DNA of 46,528 nucleotides from Octopus sinensis (Eukaryota): assembly GCF_006345805.1 (NCBI RefSeq), contig NW_021834614.1, positions 1 to 46,528 on the forward strand, written 5' to 3'. The stretch's first letter is position 1. Every line of letters begins with the position of its first letter. Positions 1 through 40,313 of the stretch are shown here, in pieces. The translations under genes were made by a program, and so were the position numbers. The notes under the pieces were generated by a model, which worked only from the letters and a program-made list of their open reading frames with translations, did no database searches and was not told where the DNA came from.

Positions 1-210
1 AAAGAGATAGATACATAGATGGACAGACAGACAGATAGATAGATAGATATTATATAGATAGATAGATAGATTTGTGTGTGAGACGACGAATGTTTATTTA
101 ACCCAGCTCAATAAGACGTCGGAGTTATATGTCTGACCTTATCATAACTAACATCAACAGGAGCAGCCTTTGTATGTAATCCAATAGCTAAGAGTACTTA
201 AATCTTAACC

Positions 211-915
211 GCAGGAGTGGCTGTGTGGTAAGTAGCTTGCTTACCAACCTCATGGATCCGGGTTCAGTTCGAATGTGTGACACCTTGGGCAAGTGTCTTC
301 TGCTATAGCCTCGGGCTGACCAAAGCCTTGTGAGTGGATTTTGGTAGACAGAAACTGAAAGAAGCCTGTCGTATATATGTATATTATATATATATATCTA
401 TATATTATATATATAGGTGAATTGAAGAAATGGAGCTGAACGCAGATTGAACAGAAATCGTTTTATTTCATTCTACGTGTGTTCGAAGGCACAATTTACC
501 AAAATCCGATTGAATAATGGGACCATATTGTGTCTTTCTCTTCAGGAAGAAATAGGAAATCCGATTTTTGCTACCAAGGTATCGGTTAAACTTTTGATTA
601 ATCTACTACAAGATTATTCATCTTTCTATTTCACATATATATATGTATGTGTGTGTGTGTGTGTGTGTTGTGTGTGTGTGTGTGTGTGTGTGCGTGTGTG
701 TGTTTGTGAGTCTGTGTTTGCCCCTTCGCCCCACATCGCTTGACAACCGATGGTGGTGTGTGTACGTCCCCACAACATTAGCAGTTCGGCAAAAGCGAAC
801 GATAGAATAAGTACTAGGCTTACAAAGAATAAGTCCTGGGGTCGATTTGCTCGACTAATGGCTGTGCTCCAGCATGGCCACAGTCAAATGACTGAAACAA
901 TAAAAGAGAGTAAGA
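211..915 (+). mobile_element. tRNA-derived SINE (family A) whose internal (TA)/(TG)n tract is interrupted by a PLE fragment
   Basis: Pol III A-box-like TGGCTGTGTGGTAAG and B-box-like GGGTTCAGTTC; body CACCTTGGGCAAGTGTCTTC; 3' tail CCAGCATGGCCACAGTCAAATGACTGAAAC; homologous copies at 9055, 14657 and elsewhere in the window. Confidence 0.85.
416..635. mobile_element. Internally deleted derivative of the palindromic Penelope-like element at 17215-19405
   Basis: 416-563 matches 17227-17377 and 563-635 matches 19332-19405; flanked by (TA)n. Confidence 0.85.
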
Positions 916-989
916 GAGATTACTCTCACCAGCACATACGTTTGACAATACATATTCTAACGCACATACACTGTGTTTTATATTCTTTC

Positions 990-1262
990 TTTTACGTGTT
1001 TCTGTCATTTGACTGTGGCCATGCTGGGGCATCGCTTTTAGTCGAGCAAATCCACCCCAGGACTTATTCTTTGTAATCCTTGTACGTGTTTTATCGGTCT
1101 CTTTTGCCGAGCCGTTAAGTTACGGGAATGTAAACACATCAACATTGGTTGTTAATCGATGGTGGACACACACACTGGTGGCCCAAGGTGCCTCGCAGTG
1201 GGACTGAACCCGGAACCATGTGGTTGAGAATCAAGCTTCTAACTGCACAGCCACGCCTGCGC
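990..1262 (-). mobile_element. SINE family A, internally deleted copy
   Basis: Reverse complement of the head (GGCGTGGCTGTGCAGTTAGAAGC...GGTTCCGGGTTCAGTCCC) and tail (CCAGCATGGCCACAGTCAAATGACAGAAAC) of family A. Confidence 0.85.
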
Positions 1263-1349
1263 TCATATGTATATATATATCAGAGTATTGACCAGACTAT
1301 TAGATGTTGTTATACAACGCTGCTCACGATGCATTTCAACTTGTTTTAG

Positions 1350-1553
1350 CTTTCGAGTGATACTAGCCCATGGCTACGCGAACAGACCATCATCCACCCC
1401 AGATCGGAAGGTATCCCGTCGCAAGGTATACTCACCTACAGCTGAGCGGACTGGAACAACCTGAAAGTTGTGTTTGGCTCTGATCCCGGAATCGAACCTA
1501 CGGTCTAGCGATCGTAATTGCTGTACCCTAACCACTAGGCCTCGCACTTTCAC
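1350..1553 (-). mobile_element. Degenerate tRNA-head SINE (other family)
   Basis: Minus strand reads GGCCTAGTGGTTAGGG (A box) and GGTTCGATTCC (B box), followed by TGTTCCAGTCCGCTCAGCTGTA; similar head at 2620-2765. Confidence 0.6.
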
Positions 1554-1574
1554 GTATGTATAATATAATATATA

Positions 1575-1612
<38 letters not shown>

Positions 1613-1639
1613 TCGAGAAATATATATGGAAAAGTCTGA

Positions 1640-2480
1640 TAATATAAGCTTTCTCGTACTCAAATATTTCCTTGATTTAAGTTCTGACCACTTTTCGTAA
1701 CACTCCTTGGTTTGCCGAAATTGTTCTTTCTTTGAATAGCTTTTCATCTGAAGGGGAATTTTCCAACAGGCCCCTAGAGTGGATATAGCAAAGAGAGCGG
1801 GCCTCAACGATGCCAACTTGTTCGTCAGCTATGTTGAGGTTCAGATAGTCTTGCAGTCCACGGATCGCATGCTTGAGCTACACGTCTGGCACGTCGACGA
1901 CTGTTTCGGCGAACCTCAATGTCCAGCGAATAATTCAACATCTCTATTTCATCCACCTTTCACTCCGTCTTTGAATTCTTCTCTGTCTCCAACACCATCA
2001 CTAACTTCCTCCACATTTTCGTTCCAATCAAGCATTCCTGTCTTCCCACCTCCATCCATGACAATCCTATAGACTCCCACTCCTAACTCAACATCTCCTC
2101 CATTCAACCTACCCACCACACTAAGCTGTAGGTCCCTTCTCTCAATTCCTCCGTTTCCGTCGGCTCTGTAGTCACGACACTACTTCGAAACACAGTTCCA
2201 TCCCACGGCCCGCGACTTTACTCAACGGGGATATTTGCCCCTGTTACCCCAGTCGCTCTTTCTCGTGTTCTGTCTTTTAACCGCGAATCGGCCCTTTCTG
2301 CCCGCAACCGCCCCACATTTATTCGCATCTCCTGACCCTTTATCTAAACTCACACCACTCCACCCATGAAACGCAGGCGCTTTCTTCCAAGTCCCTTCTG
2401 AACCCTCCACATCTTGCATTTCCTTCCAATCCATTTCTCCGCAGCCGCAGCCGACGTAGCCTACTATGTTTAAATAGGAT
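1640..2480 (+). pseudogene. Degenerate Penelope-like (Neptune-type) reverse transcriptase fragment
   Basis: Frameshifted translation gives LKYFLD, FAEIVLSLNSFSSEGEF, AGLNDANLFVSYVE (GPxYANLFVGYVE), WHVDDCFG (RYIDD), TSIHDNPIDSHS (YKPTDSHSYL), SQFLRFRRLCS and QRGY, motifs typical of PLE RT and thumb. Confidence 0.8.
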
Positions 2481-2489
2481 CCACATGTT

Positions 2490-2765
2490 CCTTTCCAAGG
2501 CACAAGTCTGGGCAAGGCTGTCTGATGGTAGACCAGCAGTCGCCCGTCCATACAAGTCTCGCCTCTCGACGCCACCGATGTTATTCAAGGGAAAGACAAA
2601 TGCCGATTCAGCTTGGCAGGGAACTGGAGCAACAGGAAATAGTGTCTTGCTCAAGAACATAACACAATAGAATACAATAGATAGACAGCGCGGTCAGGGA
2701 ATCGAACTCCTTACCTCATGAACGTAAGCCCGACGCTCTAGCCACTGAGCCATGAGACTTCACAA
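2490..2765 (-). mobile_element. tRNA-head SINE, degenerate
   Basis: Minus strand has TGGCTCAGTGGCTAGAG (A box) and GAGTTCGATTCCC (B box), then TGTTCTTGAGCAAGACACT. Confidence 0.65.
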
Positions 2766-3059
2766 ATGCACAAATGTATGTCTGTATAAAAATGTATATA
2801 ATACACTTGTGTGTGGATGGATCATTATGATATAAATCTGATCTGGTGTAATCCGGAGGTGGGAATCAGTGTCAGAGAGGTAATGATGTCTAAAACATTT
2901 CTAAAAATTAATTACGAGAAAAAAATACATAAATAAAAAGTAATTAGGCATACAAATGAATTAACTAGGAACAAAGAGTAGATTACGTTAACTAATTTAG
3001 GCAACTAATTACTAATTATGTAATTTAGTAATCCCATGCAACAACAAAGGTGGCGAAAT

Positions 3060-3715
<656 letters not shown>

Positions 3716-5853: not shown

Positions 5854-6869
5854 CTTTGGTGACGACGCGAAGGTCATAGGTGGAACCCTTTTTTAACATA
5901 AGTGTGTTCAGTAGTAGGTGGCCTGGTCATAAACGGTAACAACAATATTAACAGCACGTAAAAGAAAGAAAGAGATCAAGTTTACATTACCAGAAATTAA
6001 TATTCCCCACGTTTCATTATACCACATTAAAGAGAAATGAAAGGGCACACTGTAATAATGTGGTCCTTGATTAACAGAAAAGACAGTATGGTCATGGTTG
6101 GAACGCCTTTCATCATGACTTTATTCAGTCCCATTTACCCTTTTGCCTGTCCTGTGTATCCTTTGTAATACACAAGACACAGTTCTTTGGTGTTAATGCA
6201 TTTTATATAATACATATTGTCAGTTTTTACAACCACAAGAGTAACTCAGGGCGTATGAAATATGAAGGCGTTATGTTACTCAGAAGGTATGAAACAAGAG
6301 CTAATTACAAAGGTGAAAACAAATATGGACATTTAGGACAAACTTATAAAAGTGCTTTCGACAAGGTTTTAGAGTGGTGAAACCTCAATCTTAGTCTAAC
6401 CCCTTGCCTGTCCTGTGTATCTTATGTGATATACGGGACATATTTCCCCGGTATCCATACATTATATATGATACACATTCTCAATTTTTCTCAACTTTTG
6501 TAATACAGGAAATTTCCCATGTATTATTTTTTCACAAATATTCCCTATTCTTCTCTCACTCAGCTTCCATGCATTTTTCCCGATCGAATCTCCTGCGATG
6601 ACAAATGTAAACTTCATTTGATCAAGATATCTTTTGTCCGACAGGTAGCTAGCAGATTACCCTTCGTTTGTGTAATTATAACTTCCGAGGTTCTGTTAGA
6701 TACGAAACATATATAGCCTGGATTTTATCTACTCCACTACATAATGTTGCATGTATATCGTTCATCATATATCATACATTTTAATTATTAGATATTAATT
6801 TGGTTTAGTTTGTGAGTATACTCATATGGGACCGCAGAATACATCTCACAAGAGCGTGTGTATCATATA

Positions 6870-7418
6870 CGAGGGTGAGCCATAAAGTAATGCCATTTTG
6901 TTTAGGACAGGTATAATTATCAACACAGGAACATGTATCATACATCAAAATGAAGCTGGTCCTCTGTGGATCACATCCCTACTTCTCAACATAGCCACCG
7001 TTTCTCTCAATAGCAATGTTCCACCTTCGAATGAGAGCATGTATCCCTGCCCTGTAAAATTCTGTTGACTGTTCTTTGAGCCATTTCTTCACTACAGTTT
7101 TCACTTCCTCGTCACTGGAATAATGTTTGCCTCTCAAACCCTCTTTCATGGGGCCGAAGAGATGATAGTCCAGTGACGAGGAAGTGAAAACTGTAGTGAA
7201 GGAGTGGCTCAAAGAACAGTCAACAGAATTTTACGGAGCAGGGATACATGCTCTCATTCAAAGGTGGAACATTCCTATTGAGAGAAACGGTGACTATGTT
7301 GAGAAGTAGGGATGTGATCCACAGAGGACCAGCTTCATTTTAATGTATGATACATGTTCCTGTGTTGGTAATTATACCTGTCCTAAACAAAATGGCATTA
7401 CATTTTGACTCACCCTCG
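6870..7418. mobile_element. Mariner-derived palindromic non-autonomous element (two transposase 3' ends, ~250-bp arms)
   Basis: TA|CGAGGGTGAG...CTCACCCTCG|TA; arms 6870-7119 and 7169-7418 are reverse complements; the minus-strand ORF encodes the mariner C-terminus DYHLFGPMKEGLRGKHYSSDEEVK...RWNIAIERNGGYVEK. Confidence 0.92.
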
Positions 7419-7524
7419 TACAATATGCGCATTTTTTGTAATTAAATATAATTTATAAAGCTCTCTCAGGATCACATATGGTACACGTTTTTATTTTTTT
7501 TTATATATCCCGTCTTTTATCTTT

Positions 7525-17192: not shown

Positions 17193-17223
<31 letters not shown>

Positions 17224-17274
17224 ATTGGTGAATTGAAGAAATGGAGCTGAACGCAGATTGAACAGAAATCGTTT

Positions 17275-17368
17275 TATTTCATTCTACACGTGTTTCGAAA
17301 GGCACAAATTACCAAAATCCGATTGAATAATGGGACCATATTGTGTCTTTCTCTTCAGGAAGAAAATA
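17275..17368 (-). ncRNA. Type I hammerhead ribozyme (left-arm copy)
   Basis: Mirror image of 19106-19199. Confidence 0.8.
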
Positions 17369-17955
17369 GGAAATCCGTTGGAAAAACAAAAACAGAACAG
17401 AGGCGGAGCAAAAACAAATCGAACTATGCTCTAAGAGCCCATGCCGAAACTGTTTATCAGTGTATGTTGAGAACGGTGGCTGAAGAATTTAACGGGTCAG
17501 GCATCGGTCAACCATGTGGGTGAGGGGTGTGTGGGTGTTCTTTCTGACCGAGAATAAGGTTCTGACTATTAAGGAATATTGGATGTTTTATAAGGGGCGA
17601 GAAAAAAATCTACTTAGAGACGTGTGTGTGTGTATACTGTTCTATATAGTGTGTGTTGGCGTAGGGGTAGAAAACATTTTTTGTGTACGTGTGTGCGTTT
17701 GATCGTTCGGCTGTCAGTGGCTACTGCCGCGAGAACCGTTGGGTGGCAGAAAAAAAAAATATATATATATTATGTTTTATGTGTGTGTGTGTTCATCTAA
17801 GCCTGCCTTGTCAAGGAAGCCCCCCGCTGTGAAAAAACCAAGCCCCGTTTGTCTTACAGGAGTAATTCCCCTTGCAGTGGTTAATCGTAGATATCTTAAA
17901 GGCTATTTCAGAATTTGTTACCAAGGGCTATGGGTGCCGGTATTATTTATAAACG

Positions 17956-18232
17956 CTATTTAAAAGCCAGATAAGTGTAACGCCGCCAATGGGGGGCATC
18001 GAAAAGCCGACTGTAAAAGCCCGTTTACCATCCGGCCTCTGGCAAACAAAATATGGAAGAGTTCGGAGACACAAGGGTTGCACTGCCTTCTGCCCCTATC
18101 AAATGGGAGGGCCACCGACAAAATTGACCATTCCAGCCTGTAGCTTAAGTTCGTATCCTTCAGTCGCCATATTAGCTTACTGAGTCCGTGGTCTGGCGCT
18201 TGTTCATGTCCCGAAAAGTTGCGTAATGGTTG
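17956..18232 (-). pseudogene. PLE GIY-YIG endonuclease C-terminal fragment (left arm)
   Basis: GLSKLIWRLKDTNLSYRLEWSILSVALPFDRGRRQCNPCVSELFHILF...FRCP. Confidence 0.8.
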
Positions 18233-18238
18233 GAGACA

Positions 18239-18513
18239 CAACCATTACGCAACTTTTCGGGACATGAACAAGCGCCAGACCACGGGACTCAGTAAGCTAA
18301 TATGGCGACTGAAGGATACGAACTTAAGCTACAGGCTGGAATGGTCAATTTTGTCGGTGGCCCTCCCATTTGATAGGGGCAGAAGGCAGTGCAACCTTTG
18401 TGTCTCCGAACTCTTCCATATTTGTTTGCCAGAGGCCGGATGGTAAACGGGCTTTTACAGTCGGCTTTTCGATGCCCCCATTGGCGGCGTAACACTTATC
18501 TGCTTTTAAATAG
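18239..18513 (+). pseudogene. PLE GIY-YIG endonuclease C-terminal fragment (right arm), Naiad-like CxLC...CxH
   Basis: NHYATFRDMNKRQTTGLSKLIWRLK...EWSIL...CNLCVSE; combining both arms restores ...FRCPHWRRYTYLAFK*; fits the NH..SF...T.LSK.IW.LK...W.I...C.LC..E...C.H pattern. Confidence 0.8.
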
Positions 18514-19105
18514 CGTTTATAAATAATACCGGCACCCATAGCCCTTGGTAACAAATTCTGAAATAGCCTTTAAGATATCTACGATTAACCACTGCAAGGG
18601 GAATTACTCCTGTAAGACAAACGGGGCTTGGTTTTTTCACAGCGGGGGGCTTCCTTGACAAGGCAGGCTTAGATGAACACACACACACATAAAACATAAT
18701 ATATATATATTTTTTTTTTCTGCCACCCAACGGTTCTCGCGGCAGTAGCCACTGACAGCCGAACGATCAAACGCACACACGTACACAAAAAATGTTTTCT
18801 ACCCCTACGCCAACACACACATATATAGAACAGTATACACACACACACACGTCTCTAAGTAGATTTTTTCTCGCCCCTTATAAAACATCCAATATTCCTT
18901 AAATAGTCAGAACTTTATTCTCGGTCACAAAGAACACCCACACACCCCTCACCCACATGGTTGACCGATGCCTGACCCGTTAAATTCTTCAGCCACCGGT
19001 TCTCAACATACACTGATAAACAGTTTCGGCATGGGCTCTTAGGAGCATAGTTCGATTTGTTTTTGCTCCGCCTCTGTTCTGTTTTTGTTTTTCCAACGGA
19101 TTTCC

Positions 19106-19199
19106 TATTTTCTTCCTGAAGAGAAAGACACAATATGGTCCCATTATTCAATCGGATTTTGGTAATTTGTGCCTTTCGAAACACGTGTAGAATGAAATA
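19106..19199 (+). ncRNA. Type I hammerhead ribozyme (right-arm copy), predicted cleavage after A19189
   Basis: Stem I TATTTTCTTC/GAATGAAATA; core CTGAAGA 19116-19122; stem II GAAAGACACAA/TTGTGCCTTTC; GAAAC 19178-19182; palindromic loop III ACGT; GTA cleavage triplet. Confidence 0.82.
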
Positions 19200-19749
19200 A
19201 AACGATTTCTGTTCAATCTGCGTTCAGCTCCATTTCTTCAATTCACCAATAATGTTTTAATTCATTATCCGCACCAACGCACGTTTGCAACACCATATGG
19301 TTGTACCTCCAACCGTGCTGTTTACTGCTGTGATTTTTGCTACTAAGGTATCGGTTAAACTTTTGATTAATCTACTACAAGATTATTCATCTTTCTATTT
19401 CACATTATATATATATATATATATAATCAAAATAAGCAATATATTTATATATATACATATGTATATATATCGATTGCTTATGTGTGTGTGTGTGTACACG
19501 TATTAATGTGCTTGTGTATATGTATGCGAACGTCGCAGTTGTGTGTTTGGGGGTATTTCTTCGCTTTCAATAAGATTGCGGCAGAAGACATTAATATCGC
19601 ATTGGAGACGCTTTTAGAAATATTGAAAAATATTGATAAATGCCATTTAGAATTACTCGGTCTCGCCTGTTGTCCAACTTTTCTATCCTATCTTGTGATG
19701 GAAATAGATATATTGGTGATGACCTACTATGTATCACTTAATGTATACA

Positions 19750-28839: not shown

Positions 28840-31800
28840 TAATTTGTTTTGTTTTTTTTTTATGAAAACTTAATAATAATTTAACTTTACTTGAAAAGAA
28901 AATTTCTAACAGTGACACCGAATCGCTTGTCCAATGGTTATAAAGGAAGCGCGCCTGTCAGGAGGCTGCCAGCCCGATGGCGAAAAATTTTCAAATGGCA
29001 GAATATCTTCCCCGAATACGAACCTGGAAGGTCACTTAAACGTGATTTGTCCCAAATTAAGCCCCCAAATTTCACCACCACAACGACTAGAAAATCAAAA
29101 AAGTGAAAGAACTAAATGGAACCGGGGAGAATATAAAGAAGTAATATATGTTTATTACTTTGCATTAAGTAGGCCAAACCAAGAGAAACACACAGCAAAC
29201 TCCTTCAGAATTTGGAGGAGCCGGAATCCAGCCAGCAGACCAAACCTGGATGAAAACAGATTAGCAAAGGTTAGAAGAGATATCTTCAGAAATACCAGAC
29301 TCACAGATGCAGAATTAACCTCTATTAAAAAAGTGGTAGAGAATGACCTAAATGTAAGTCAGGAAAGAAATAACGAAGCTGAGGAGAGGAATGTTGAGTC
29401 ACAAGCATTGACTGAAAGGCGACCATCTGCCGAAACGACTCAAGATCCTGAAGAAGAAGGAAAATATAATGACCCTAGAAAAAACAGCCAGGAAAATGAT
29501 GTCGAAACAGAATTTGAAGACCACATATTTGCTGAACAATACAGAAAATCTATCATTGAAATGAAGCAAGAAGTTCTGAATGAGCTTGCAGTTGTCGGCC
29601 ATACAACTATGAATGATAGGGAACCACTCCATAAACTCTCAAATGCACATCAACATAAAACAGAAATAAAAATTGGCAACTGCATTACACAGGAAATCAT
29701 ACAACAACTAAAACCCGATCTTAATAAATTAAATGAAATTATTTACTCTGTCGCTAAGGTAATCGAAAGACGCTGTTTAACACCCAAAAAGCCAACAATA
29801 CCAAATTACAAAAAGAAAATCAAACTGAAGGAGTAGAATTGAAACTGAGATTGAATCATTGCGAAGGGAGATATCAATATTAACTGAGCTAATCTCTGGA
29901 AATGATGTAAGATCAAGAAAAGGTAGGAAGATTGTGAGAAAAGATGGACACTCAACAAGAGAAGAACTAATGTCAGCGAAAGAAACACTTAAACAAAAAG
30001 TTCAAGCAAAAGCTCAGAGAATACGCAGATTTGAGAAAAGAATCAAATTCTACAAACAAAATAAGATGTTCAAATCCAATGCCAAATCATTTTGCAGGGA
30101 AATAGGGAAAGAAAAAATAACCATTGAAAATCCACCCCTAATGGAAGAAGTTGAAAACTTTTGGAAGGGGATCTGGAGTGATGAGAAACCATACAATGAA
30201 AATGCAGAGTGGATCAAACGCACCCAAGATGACTACAAAAGTTTACAAGAACAGGTATGGGGAGACATCTCAATCGCCGACCTAAGGAGGGCACTAACGA
30301 AGGCTCACAAGTGGAAATCCCCTGGTATTGATAGAGTACCAAATTTCTGGCTCTCATCGCTCTCGTCCGCACACAAAATGTTAGTAATACTATTTAATAG
30401 TATTATGAAAGACCCGAAAAAAACATCCCATTGGATGGCATATGGTATTACTTACCTCCTCCCCAAAATAACAAAACGAAAGAACCAAAAATCTACCGGC
30501 CTATAACATATTTATCTACTACCTATAAGATTTTGACATCTATTCTAGTAGAGAAATCATATACGTTTATGGAAGAGAATAACCTCTTTCCCACTGAACA
30601 AAAAGGATGCAGACGGGGCTCATACGGATGCAAAGATCAGCTCCTAATTAACCGCATGATCCTTGAGAACTGCCATAATAAGCGCAGGAATCTCAGCTCT
30701 TCTTGGATTGATTATAAAAAAGCCTTTGACAGCATACCACATTCGTGGATTCTGAAATCGCTGGACATTTTCAAAATTTCTCCTGTGATTTCAGATTTTT
30801 TAAAGTATAATATGTCACTATGGAACACGATGCTCCAATTATAACATTCTAATGGAATATTGCGCTCAAACAATATTAGCATAAACTGTGGAATTTTCCA
30901 AGGTGACTCACTTTCACCACTAATTTTCTGAATAGCACTAATACCACTCTCAAGTGAACTGAATAGAACAGGATATGGCTCCAAAATTGACAACAGGGGA
31001 ATAAGCCATCTATTTTATATGGATGATTTAAAGCTATATGGTAAAAATGATGAAGAGCTTGAAGAATTATTACATACTGTGAAAGGATTCAGTGACGATA
31101 TCGGGATGGGGCTTGGCCTTGAAAAGTGTGCCAAAGCCAATTTTAAGAAAGGGAAATTGGTAAAGTCTAGTTCAATCGAATTAGATGTCGAAACAGTAAT
31201 AAAGGAACTTGAGCAGGAACAAACCTATAAATACCTAGGAATAAATGAAGGCTCTGGTATCCAGCATGCAAGCATGAAAGAGGTTAGGAAGGAATGTTAT
31301 AGAAGAGTTCGATCAGTCCTGAAGTCTGAGCTGAATGCATATAATAAGGTGTTAGCCATAAATTCCTTAGCAGTACCAGTTGTTTTCTATAGCTTCAATG
31401 TGCTTAACTGGAATACCAGTGAAATAATGAAAATTGACAGAAAAATCCGCAAGCTACTGACTTATGATAAGATGCACCTTCTAAAGGCAGACGTGGATCG
31501 CCTTTACCTTCCCAGAGCTCAGGGAGGTCGAGGTTCGATCCAGCTTGAACTTACATACAAAACCACCACAATCGGACTGGCCAAATACCTTCAAGCAACC
31601 AACGATTGGATGCTAAACTTGTTGAAAAACATGAAAGACTGAAAAAACTTCATTCTATTCTCAAAGAGAGCAAAAAATTCGCTGCTGGTCTCTTAGATAC
31701 CCACCAGATTGAGCAGGCTGAAGGAAATACGCCAACTGCAGCTGCAAAGAAAAGAAAATTAATTGCAAAGACAAAAGCACATGAAAATTTAGCTAGCAGA

Positions 31801-32718
31801 TGGGAACAGAAACCTCTCCATGGCAAGTATGTGGCCCGTAGCAAACCAGCTGATGTCGACCAGAAACACACGCACAAATGGTTTCGAAGCTCAGGGCTAA
31901 AAGCAGAGAGTGAAGGTTTCATATTAGCTGCTCTAGACCAAAGCTTATTAACCCGGAACTACCAAGCCAGTGTGATAAAAAATGGAGCTGACCCAAAATG
32001 CCGATTCTGTAACAATGATATTGAAACATTAGACCACCTAATCTCAGGGTGTAGAGTCTTAGCGCCTGCAAAATATAAAGTAAGACATGACAGAGTCGGC
32101 CAGTATTTACATTATAAAATCGAAACCGCTGTCAAATGGTATAAACACCATCCTGAAGCTGTGACTGAGGGAGAAAATGTGTCGATTCTACGGGACTTTC
32201 CCGTACAGACCGATAAGACTATAAAAGCTAATAAACCGGATTTTATTATAAAAGATCAGACAAAAAAGATGTGTTTATTAATTGACATGAGTATTCCTTG
32301 CGATCACAATATAGCGGCGAAAGGATTTGACACGATTAGTAAATATAAAGACTTGCTAATAGAAATTGAAAAAATGTGGCATCTCAAGACGACTACAGTA
32401 CCAGGGATTGTAGGATCTCTAGGAATGATAAAAAAAGGTACTGAAACCTATTTGAAAATGATTCCAGGCTTACCATCCCTACAGGAAGTGCAAAAAATCG
32501 TATTACCTGGAACGGCTCATGTACTGAGAAGAGCATTATCGCTGTGAAAACAACATCCATCCATGAATTTATTTATTTATTAATTTTTAAATACATATTT
32601 TATCTGTGAATTTGCGCGTGTAATCTGGGAATGCACACAATGAAGTTCTCTACCCTAGGTGTACGGAAAACACTCGGCGAGAAACGGAAGAAAATTTGAA
32701 GAAAGAAGTAAAAAAACA
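28840..32718 (+). mobile_element. Near full-length Dong/R4-clade non-LTR retrotransposon (RT plus restriction-like endonuclease), disrupted
   Basis: Coding motifs as in the next feature; 3' UTR 32548-32718 followed by (TAA)n; 5' flank is also (TAA)n; exact 5' boundary uncertain. Confidence 0.9.
28934..32547 (+). pseudogene. Single RT-REL polyprotein broken by stops and frameshifts (track ORFs 28934-29836, 29859-30506, 30431-30844, 31019-31642, 31606-32547)
   Basis: N-terminal RTKWNRGEYKEVIYVYY; WKSPGID; YRPIT; EQKGCRRG; WIDYKKAFDSIPH; GIFQGDSLSPL; HLFYMDDLKLY; CCHC knuckle CRFC...HLISGC; RHD; KPD...IDMSIP...KYKDL endonuclease. Confidence 0.93.
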
Positions 32719-37885: not shown

Positions 37886-38129
37886 TTATATATATATATA
37901 TAATAAGGGGTAAAATGAATTAATCAATTAATAATTAATAATATTACCAAGTAGTTCGGTATGTTAAAATACTTTTCCACTACTACCATAAGATATCTCC
38001 CAGACACATCTTATGGAAGTAGAACAGTATTTAAACTGCTATTTCTAAATTCCGGTATGTGGTGAAGCAAATTTTACTGAACCCTAATTATAATTATACT
38101 CATAATTACAGAATTTTTGTATATATATA

Positions 38130-38627
38130 TTAGCAGTATCGCCCGGCGTTGCTCGGGTTTGTAAGGGAAATAACTATATAAGCATTTTTAGAGAGTTACT
38201 TCCCTTATAGATGCCAATTCGGGCTTTCTTAGCCATTTCTGTTTTGGTGTCTTCAAGCCATGAAGTCGTTGTTCTAAAAAAACGCTGGTCTCCTTGACAA
38301 CGCTTTACGACGTTGATTTTCTTACACTCCCTTCCCCACAGCTTCACGAGGGAGGGAAGAAGGGTGAGAACACAGGTGCAGGTGTGACCATGGACGCCAA
38401 CTCCGCCGCCATCGACACACAAAACATTATGCATTAAAATGGAATAAAAAATGATGTTAAATTATTTTTAAAATCGTTGACTCATCGTAGACGCACTCTA
38501 ATACTCAGACGGGCTCGATATGAATCACGACTGTAAGATACCCGAATTTGGTTAAACTGCACCGCAAAATGTGGGAGTAGTTAGGAATCTAAATCGAAGG
38601 GGACAGACACTCACACAACTACAGTTT

Positions 38628-38638
<11 letters not shown>
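38130..38638 (-). mobile_element. Non-autonomous Helitron-like element (copy 1)
   Basis: Minus strand ends CCCGAGCAACGCCGGG hairpin-CGATACTG-CTAA; 5' and 3' parts shared with copy 2. Confidence 0.8.
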
Positions 38639-38660
<22 letters not shown>

Positions 38661-38986
38661 TTAATCAATGAAATTTCAACAAGGTCTGCTTTTCCCGTTA
38701 TATTATTTGCAATTTCTACAATTTCACAAGATTGAAACAAACTGGTACTTTCTGTGCCATCATCAGATTTATGTAGTGACAGTCCAGTTGGTGGACTCTG
38801 CACACAGTTTCTAAATACTAAAGTCACTCATAAGACGCTGATCGACAAGGAGCTATAGTAGAAGACTCTCGCCCAAAATGTCGCCCAGCGGGATACTGAA
38901 TCCGATACCACAGACCAGCAAATCCATATCCTTAACCACACAAACATGTCTCCGATGTAAATACAATTGGAAAGAGCGCAACGATA

Positions 38987-39384
38987 TCTTTATATATAAA
39001 AGTAAGGTTGTGTGTCCGTCTCCTACGATTTAGATTCCTAACTACTCCCACATTTTGCGGTGCAGTTTAACCAAAACCGGGTATCTTATAGTCGTGATTC
39101 ATATCGAACCCTTCTGGGTACTAGCGCGCGTCTACGATGAGTCTACGATTTAAAAAAAAATTCGCCTTCATTTTTTTCCATTTTAATGCATTTTTTTCGC
39201 TATTATATAAGGGAAGTACTCTCTAAAAATGTCTACGATGAGTCAACGATTTAAAAAAAAATTTACCATCATTTTGTTTCCATTTTTAATGCATTTTTTT
39301 GCTATTTTTTGGCTATAACTCTCTAAAAATGCTTATATAGTTATTTCCCTTACAAACCCGAGCAACGCCGGGCGATACTGCTAG
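38987..39384 (+). mobile_element. Non-autonomous Helitron-like element (copy 2)
   Basis: A|TC 5' end, subterminal hairpin 39357-39372, CTAG|T 3' end, no TSD; internal ~75-bp duplication (39130-39203 and 39231-39306). Confidence 0.87.
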
Positions 39385-39684
39385 TATTTTCTAAAGCAAA
39401 TAGTTGGGTTTATTTCTTTATGCGCCACATGCAGACATATCGACAAACACACGTAAGTACATATTCTGAACATTTAGAGCGCGCATAAAGGATGTTTCTG
39501 GTGTTAATGTCTTTCTCACCATGATGCACGCTCTCATGCACCTATGCTAGATATTACGGGAGATATTTTCTTAATTTATTTCATAATTACACTTTAATTA
39601 CAAAGATGTTCATACACCATCGCCAGATTAATCAAGGAGCATGATGAAGAACTGGTCATTTACATCAATTTTTAAACAACAACA

Positions 39685-40278
39685 TTATTATTATTATCAT
39701 CATCATCATCATCATGATTATTATTACTATTATTATTATTATAACTATTATTATTAATATTATTATTATTATTATTATCATTATTATTATTATTATTATT
39801 ATTACATTATTATATTATTATTATTATTATTATATTATTATTATTATTACTTTTTTTTTTTCTTCTTTCAAATTTTCTTCCATTTCTTGCCGAGTGTCTT
39901 CCCGACTCCTAGGGCAAAGAAACTCATAGTGTATATTGGTAGGCCATTAAACCAAACTCAGAAGTTCGTTCATTTTTTAAATTTTTTATTTTTTTAAAGT
40001 TAGATTAAAATACATGAGCAGCAACAGTTCTCACATCGACAATGCTCTTCTCAATACGTGTGATGTACCAGTTAAGACAATCTTTTGCACTTCTTGCAGG
40101 GATGGTAAGCCAGGGATCATTCTCATATAATTTTCGGTTCCCTTCTTGATCATTCCTAGTGCTCCTACGATCACTGGTATTGTAACCGCCTTGAGATGCC
40201 ACATTTTCTCAATTTCAATGAGTAGGTCTTTATATTTTCTGAGCTTGTCAAACTCTTTCGCTGAGATTATTATTATTA

Positions 40279-40313
<35 letters not shown>

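What the first reader, a model, noticed from the sequence alone, without database searches (positions are those of the whole stretch)
17215..19405. 2-kb near-perfect palindromic Penelope-like element with a ribozyme in each arm
Seen: ~1.02-kb arms, a 6-nt spacer (18233-18238) falling inside the endonuclease coding region, a ~600-nt non-coding stretch, a hammerhead near each outer end, a 146-bp tail on one side only, and (TA)n flanks. The arms differ mostly by 1-bp indels. Known: inverted pLTRs and 3' tails are PLE hallmarks, consistent with hairpin-primed synthesis. Inference: transcription from either direction gives a ~1-kb hairpin RNA with one sense hammerhead able to define its 3' end, so this could act as a non-autonomous self-processing hairpin element. 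It is the best candidate in the window for an undescribed system.
Basis: partly seen in the sequence, partly recalled or inferred. Interest (0 to 1): 0.75.

Follow-up and report, generated by a model that had tools for sequence, protein, structure and literature searches.

The report
Ordinary back-to-back Penelope retrotransposon insertion
The 2-kb mirror-image sequence with a predicted self-cutting RNA motif in each half is real, but it is one of many back-to-back truncated insertions of a young Penelope-type jumping-gene family whose fold point differs from copy to copy, so it is ordinary in kind; only the long 146-base tail and the strict pairing of two fixed ends are worth a note.

Summary
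Observation confirmed: arms 17215-18232 and 18239-19259 (15 differing columns of 1025), hammerhead motif in each arm, 146-nt tail, (TA)n flanks. The 'self-processing hairpin element' reading is not supported. Of 66 insertions of this family mapped in G000, 53 are head-to-head inverted; their junctions range over the whole 3.6-kb unit, this junction occurs once in the genome, and larger near-perfect palindromes exist (arms 2.1 and 2.6 kb). Outer ends are fixed: 52 of 53 pair one short end with one tailed end. The 6-nt spacer is family sequence belonging to the tail-less arm, which a simple fold-back of one cDNA cannot make. The predicted ribozyme cut lies 70 and 216 nt inside the two ends, and in a hairpin RNA the motif would be locked in duplex. 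Full-length copies encode an RT plus C-terminal GIY-YIG-type endonuclease with several Hydra-clade motifs. Inverted truncated copies, one-sided tails, hammerheads and TA targets are published PLE hallmarks; this scan noted such stumps before for other families in this genome. Residual interest: a 146-nt tail (published 30-40) and end pairing that suggests two cDNAs primed from both target strands.

The parts
17215..18238 (-). Tail-less arm: 5'-truncated 3' end of the element (unit positions about 2448-3468), ending at the family's fixed short end; includes the 6-nt spacer
18233..18238 (-). 6-nt 'spacer' = the family's own next six bases upstream, on the left arm; head-to-head junction with 1-nt overlap
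   Evidence: natural copy L035 has the same six bases before the arm start; unique in G000
18239..19259 (+). Tailed arm (unit positions 2454-3468)
19260..19405 (+). 146-nt tail up to the fixed long end; in full-length tandem copies it continues into the 5' UTR, 48 nt before the likely start codon
18240..18513 (+). C-terminal remnant of the GIY-YIG-type endonuclease (H, E, N, CNLC, CPH), broken by 1-nt indels; stop 18511-18513
17956..18238 (-). Mirror copy of the endonuclease remnant, also broken by 1-nt indels
19106..19199 (+). Predicted type I hammerhead: CUGAAGA 19116-19122, helix II 19123-19177, GAAA 19178-19181, ACGU loop 19183-19186, predicted cut after 19189
   Evidence: not detected by Rfam
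17275..17368 (-). Mirror copy of the hammerhead motif in the left arm
   Evidence: arms 17215-17431 and 19043-19259 are 100% complementary
17193..17214 (.). (TA)n target, left
19406..19425 (.). (TA)n target, right
412..636 (.). Second, miniature insertion of the same family in the window: inverted short-end arm 412-563 joined to a 74-nt piece of the tail 563-636

Best explanation
This is one 5'-truncated, head-to-head insertion of a young, multi-copy Penelope-like retrotransposon family, set in a (TA)n tract, and it is likely a dead product rather than an element in its own right. Shown: full-length copies elsewhere in G000 (3.6-kb unit) encode an RT followed by a GIY-YIG-type endonuclease; inverted insertions end at two fixed sites 146-148 nt apart, one at each outer end; the inner junction varies. 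Inferred mechanism: the element's protein nicks both strands of a TA tract; each nick primes a cDNA on the element RNA, one starting at the short site and one at the tail site; both run toward the RNA 5' end, stop early, and are joined head-to-head through short overlaps. When both stop at nearly the same place (same broken RNA or same stall), a near-perfect palindrome results, as here; when they stop apart, the arms are unequal. The hammerhead is the family's ordinary terminal-repeat motif, carried along twice.
For: 53 of 66 mapped insertions are head-to-head; 52 of 53 pair a short with a long end, also 30 of 31 in the subset found with a tail-less query. Junctions span unit positions 25-3559; 38 of 53 differ by more than 100 nt between arms. 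Exact junction found at 1 locus in 2.72 Gb. Near-perfect palindromes (10 of 53) have centres near 895, 1354, 2450, 2700, 2870 and 3228-3272. Either arm may be the longer one (22 tail arm, 20 short arm, of 42), which one folded-back cDNA cannot give. Overlaps at 38 of 53 junctions; (TA)n on both sides in 50 of 53. Arms differ by 0.54% substitutions (50 of 9321 sites, 17 loci) against 1.03% between loci (136 pairs), fitting a shared template. Protein: 63 homologues at E<=0.001, aligned RT and endonuclease motifs. Two RT start sites bracketing the tail, both-strand cleavage and a predicted dimer were reported for an Anolis PLE (PMC11167929, parts 1-2 of 4 read).
Against: The two-cDNA step is inferred from end patterns only. 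[quoted passage not shown] PMC3846280 (Discussion read) explains junction palindromes by self-priming instead, and near-symmetric junctions are in excess over chance here (10 observed, 1.6 expected, p 5e-5; 5 of 47 against 1.0, p 0.002, after dropping 6 pairs with both ends in the 3200-3300 hotspot). The sample is the best-scoring part of 1370 and 536 candidates, so young and long or tailed copies are favoured. Junction overlaps come from local alignments and may be overstated. Pfam recognised neither domain in the family or in 6 homologues. No read evidence for this copy's junction.
Confidence: 0.9

Rival explanations
1. Same ordinary PLE insertion, but made by fold-back self-priming of one reverse transcript (or self-priming on an antisense template), with later trimming explaining unequal arms.
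For: Excess of near-symmetric junctions with loops of 1-27 nt (10 of 53); arms more alike than copies; self-priming proposed in PMC3846280.
Against: A cDNA begun at the tail end and folded back must leave the loop on the tailed arm; here the spacer belongs to the tail-less arm, and the tail-less arm reaches further 5' in 20 of 42 unequal cases. A cDNA begun at the short end holds no template for the tail.
Confidence: 0.25
2. A non-autonomous, self-processing hairpin element that is transcribed, cut by its sense hammerhead and re-mobilised as a unit.
For: Palindrome and intact hammerhead cores are real; near-perfect palindromes are commoner than chance.
Against: Junction single-copy; centres differ among near-perfect copies; predicted cut 70 and 216 nt inside the ends and no truncation cluster at the cut; hammerhead region folds alone at -16 kcal/mol but pairs with the antisense arm at -170 kcal/mol; its minimal helix III with palindromic loop is of the type reported to need a second ribozyme copy (PMC4209133, parts 1-2 of 4 read), and a hairpin transcript holds only one sense copy.
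Confidence: 0.03
3. Fold-back chimera of a long read in an unplaced contig.
For: The window is a whole 46.5-kb contig; arm differences are mostly private 1-nt indels; no contig was listed across the junction.
Against: The palindrome stops exactly at the family's short end and does not run into the flanks; one side carries the tail; the spacer is family sequence; the same architecture is seen at 52 other places, most on chromosome-scale contigs; short-read contigs show (TA)n joined at 19259 and at the tail end.
Confidence: 0.04

Closest known systems
Insertion units of endonuclease-positive Penelope-like elements: inverted 5'-truncated copy, pseudo-LTR, one-sided tail (PMC8557442 passages and section 11; PMC3846280 passages and Discussion)
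   Same: Adjacent inverted 5'-truncated copy at the 5' end, tail at one end only, partial tandems (L035, L086, L089), palindromes at the inverted junction, AT-rich targets.
   Different: Tail is 146-148 nt, not 30-40; in this sample the tail is not optional in inverted copies (52 of 53 pair one short with one long end).
Hydra clade of C-terminal-endonuclease PLEs (Craig et al. 2021, PMC8557442 section 11)
   Same: DKT in place of DKG, no CCHH in the endonuclease, CxxC and CxH around the conserved E and N, (TA)n targets, hammerhead present.
   Different: Linker CxCX5C is lost in this family though present in 8 of 8 aligned homologues; RWK reads RWL; unit is 3.6 kb, not under 3 kb, with low-complexity inserts in the ORF and about 740 nt of 3' non-coding DNA; no tree against reference Hydra sequences was made.
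Poseidon of Anolis carolinensis (PMC11167929, parts 1-2 of 4)
   Same: Two fixed ends bracketing the tail; hammerhead upstream of both; AT-rich targets.
   Different: Short tail; there the ORF starts inside the hammerhead, here about 260 nt downstream of the cut; different clade motifs.
Non-LTR retrozymes (PMC4209133 parts 1-2; bioRxiv 10.64898/2026.07.22.740005 part 1 of 5)
   Same: Non-coding units with a type I hammerhead related to PLE pseudo-LTRs.
   Different: Retrozymes are head-to-tail tandem repeats that form families; this is a single head-to-head insertion with a coding remnant and a unique junction.

Membership tests
C-terminal EN+ Penelope-like element | RT followed by C-terminal GIY-YIG endonuclease in one ORF | tested here: met
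   Copies L035 and L041 align end to end with single 713-803-aa homologues, with RT motifs and VY..YVG plus R, H, E, N; the two copies are broken at different places. Pfam gave no domain call, so this rests on motifs.
C-terminal EN+ Penelope-like element | Partial tandem pseudo-LTRs and inverted 5'-truncated copies | tested here: met
   53 of 66 inverted; tandems in L035, L049, L083, L085, L086, L089
C-terminal EN+ Penelope-like element | Tail extension at one end | tested here: met
   52 of 53; length 146-148 nt, longer than the published 30-40
C-terminal EN+ Penelope-like element | Hammerhead motif in the terminal repeat | tested here: met
   Core intact at 113 of 125 anchored sites, overlapping loci counted more than once; fold drawn; cleavage not testable
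Hydra clade | DKG changed to DKT | tested here: met
   SDKT in L041 and 7 of 8 homologues carry DKT, one DKS
Hydra clade | CCHH motif absent; CxxC and CxH around E and N | tested here: met
   One cysteine only between VY and YVG; CNLC and CPH present
Hydra clade | Linker CxCX5C motif | tested here: not met
   Only the first cysteine remains in L035 and L041; intact in 8 of 8 homologues. Filed as Hydra-like, not as a member.
Hydra clade | RWK motif | tested here: inconclusive
   RWL in L041; RWK, RWR, RWA or RWE in homologues
Hydra clade | Insertion into (TA)n | tested here: met
   50 of 53 on both sides
Hydra clade | RT groups with reference Hydra families in a tree | not tested
Non-LTR retrozyme or dedicated non-autonomous element | A fixed unit repeated as a family | tested here: not met
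   Junction at 1 locus; centres differ
Non-LTR retrozyme or dedicated non-autonomous element | Unit ends set by the hammerhead cut; head-to-tail copies with two sense ribozymes | tested here: not met
   Ends 70 and 216 nt past the cut; one sense ribozyme per strand

The most novel reading that the evidence does not exclude
In this Hydra-like family every inverted insertion is made of two cDNAs primed from the two target strands, one always from the short start site and one always from a site 146-148 nt further on: an obligatory asymmetric twin-priming rule, rather than the self-priming with an optional 30-40-nt tail now in print. The widely spaced sites and the many young copies would make the unsolved origin of PLE inverted repeats directly testable.
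Probability: 0.45. Interest if true: 0.45.

Novelty: new member of a known kind. Interest (0 to 1): 0.17.

Why it matters
As an object the palindrome matters little: it is a textbook Penelope-type insertion product. The family data add one useful constraint on how these elements insert, a step that PMC8557442 and PMC11167929 both call unresolved: the two outer ends never match (52 of 53) and either arm can be the longer. If that reflects paired priming at two fixed RNA sites, it would explain tail, inversion and palindromes in one model. Such insertions would also be a source of long double-stranded RNA if transcribed.

Tried and rejected
Rfam, whole window and 19040-19420: no hammerhead match; free fold not better than shuffles. 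Pfam on 5 family peptides and 6 homologues: no RT or GIY-YIG call. ARAGORN: 0 tRNA genes in the window, so no sign of the tRNA-headed repeat noted earlier for another family. A genome search with the 130 nt before the short end returned nothing although the window holds them (common words are skipped), so no third, tail-independent sample of short copies was obtained. Sequencing runs: no RNA holder on record. Four DNA-like runs as contigs covered the unique right flank 19504-19730 (0, 1, 1 and 4 differences) but listed no piece across 18233-18238; no verdict on this junction. Idea that the long tail hides an intron: four runs guessed to be RNA showed no splice joint, and 3 of 4 gave the tail as one unbroken 147-148-nt contig; not supported, contigs only. 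Two apparent segment starts at a splice-like site (L045, L049) proved to be a separate small insertion and a rearranged junction. My first recalled label, Neptune clade, was dropped after the motif comparison. Target-site duplication could not be read in (TA)n. No model of paired priming for PLEs was seen in the listings (listings only; most subscription papers are not held). Supplements of PMC8557442 (Hydra sequences and tails) were not opened and may bear on whether a long tail is new. One hit (C1:129940093) was not fetched.

Full report
Observation. The window is a whole 46.5-kb contig of a 2.72-Gb animal genome, G000. Arms 17215-18232 and 18239-19259 are 1018 and 1021 nt and differ at 15 of 1025 columns, or 14 events: 10 indels, 4 substitutions. 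A 146-nt tail follows the right arm only, and (TA)n flanks both ends. In 13 of the 14 events one arm has the allele common in 40 other loci (39-58 occurrences) and the other an allele seen 0-1 times; these are likely consensus errors or private mutations and carry no signal.

Hammerhead. Each arm holds a type I motif: CUGAAGA at 19116-19122, a 55-nt helix II region closed by 10 pairs, GAAA at 19178-19181, C-ACGU-G, then UA with the predicted cut after 19189, and a 9-pair helix I with one mismatch. The core is intact at 113 of 125 anchored sites in fetched loci, overlapping loci counted more than once. Rfam did not detect it and the free fold gives only helix II, so it rests on the conserved core. 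Small palindromic helix III motifs of this kind are described in PLE terminal repeats, are thought to work as dimers and cleave poorly (PMC4209133, parts 1-2 of 4).

The family. A 453-nt arm query gave 1370 candidates (40 scored) and a 316-nt end-plus-tail query 536 (40 scored), at 98-99% identity. Locus L035 is a full-length natural copy with a 3616-nt unit and was used as ruler (U). It encodes an RT and a C-terminal endonuclease; 63 homologues were found (best 46% identical), and the alignment shows RT motifs, DKT, VY..YVG with R, H, E, N, CNLC and CPH, and no CCHH. These match the Hydra clade description (PMC8557442 section 11), but the linker CxCX5C is lost and the unit is over 3 kb, and no tree was made; I call it Hydra-like. 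The window's arms are U2447-3468 and U2454-3616: the last 90 codons or so, about 740 nt of non-coding DNA, and the tail, which in tandem copies runs into the 5' UTR 48 nt before the likely start codon.

The decisive test. I mapped 66 insertions from 65 non-redundant loci (duplicates dropped, one hit not fetched). 53 are head-to-head inverted and 13 single-armed. Junction positions run from U25 to U3559; 38 of 53 differ between arms by more than 100 nt and 10 of 53 by 15 nt or less. The near-perfect ones are centred near U895 (arms about 2.6 kb), 1354 (2.1 kb), 2450 (this copy), 2700, 2870 and five at 3228-3272. The exact junction of this copy occurs at one locus. A second, 225-nt insertion with the same plan lies at 412-636 of the window.

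What is fixed. 52 of 53 inverted insertions have one end at the short site (U3457-3470) and one at the long site (U3615-3616); the other is interrupted by foreign sequence. In the subset found with a tail-less query it is 30 of 31. Both flanks are (TA)n in 50 of 53. Short-read contigs independently show (TA)n joined at both sites. 27 of 106 truncation points fall in U3200-3310, possibly the RNA 5' end (inferred); only 1 lies within 12 nt of the ribozyme cut at U3398.

Mechanism. The spacer is the family's own next six bases on the tail-less arm. One cDNA begun at the tail and folded back would leave the loop on the tailed arm; one begun at the short site has no template for the tail. The tail-less arm also reaches further in 20 of 42 unequal cases, the tailed arm in 22. 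Two cDNAs primed from the two nicked target strands, one per start site, and joined through short overlaps (38 of 53 junctions) fit all of this; arms are twice as alike as separate copies (0.54% against 1.03%), as expected from one template, and the excess of near-symmetric junctions (10 against 1.6 expected, p 5e-5; 5 of 47 against 1.0 outside the hotspot, p 0.002) would arise when both stop at one RNA break. This step is inference. In its favour, an Anolis PLE cuts both strands, starts reverse transcription at two sites that bracket the tail, is predicted to be a dimer and does not need ribozyme cleavage in vitro; against it, no strand preference of start sites was seen (PMC11167929, parts 1-2 of 4). 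Self-priming is the published proposal for junction palindromes (PMC3846280 Discussion) and may account for some.

Hairpin-element reading. The cut would fall 70 and 216 nt inside the two ends; the motif folds alone at -16 kcal/mol but pairs with the opposite arm at -170; a transcript has only one sense ribozyme; and no second copy exists. Not supported.

Artefact reading. The palindrome stops at the family end and not in the flank, and the plan recurs at 52 other places. Contigs from four runs confirm the unique right flank but gave no verdict on this junction. Unlikely, not excluded.

Known context. [quoted passage not shown] Earlier notes of this scan reached the same reading for other families in this genome; none matched this family's end by sequence. 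I had formed the reading before that look-up.

Verdict. Real, ordinary in kind: a new Hydra-like family member showing a known architecture. Interest 0.17. What remains is the long tail and the strict end pairing, which point to a testable paired-priming model.

Noticed in passing
window 412-636: Miniature insertion of the same family (inverted short-end arm plus 74 nt of tail) in a TA tract; same one-short-one-long plan.
   Followed up: yes
L090 618-5880 and L091 657-5016: Near-perfect palindromes of the same family with arms of about 2.6 and 2.1 kb, larger than the finding.
   Followed up: partly
unit positions 3200-3310 (window about 18990-19100): Hotspot holding 27 of 106 truncation points just upstream of the hammerhead; may mark the transcript start. 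Some junctions there show short slippage repeats (L056, L068).
   Followed up: partly
L035 6450-7400, run X1: 32 of 55 listed changes in contigs of a run guessed to be RNA are A>G; may be A-to-I editing of double-stranded element RNA, but copies and alleles look the same and no matched DNA was laid.
   Followed up: no
L035 and L041, between RT thumb and endonuclease: Low-complexity Asn/Ser-rich inserts and loss of the linker cysteines relative to homologues, in a family that still targets (TA)n; recalls the Asn-rich inserts described in PMC3846280.
   Followed up: no
window 6868-7420: A 550-nt palindrome (91% alike arms) with a short transposase-like C-terminal reading; looks like a fold-back mariner derivative (name recalled, not from a call); no hammerhead pattern.
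   Followed up: no
window 28916-32547 and 39824-40312: Broken non-LTR retrotransposon (RVT_1 E 2.4e-7, weak zf-RVT) and an inverted, 74% alike 3' fragment of a relative.
   Followed up: partly
window 38127-39387: Nested inverted repeats (38127-38198 with 39316-39387; 38429-38642 with 38984-39191), likely DNA-transposon derivatives.
   Followed up: no
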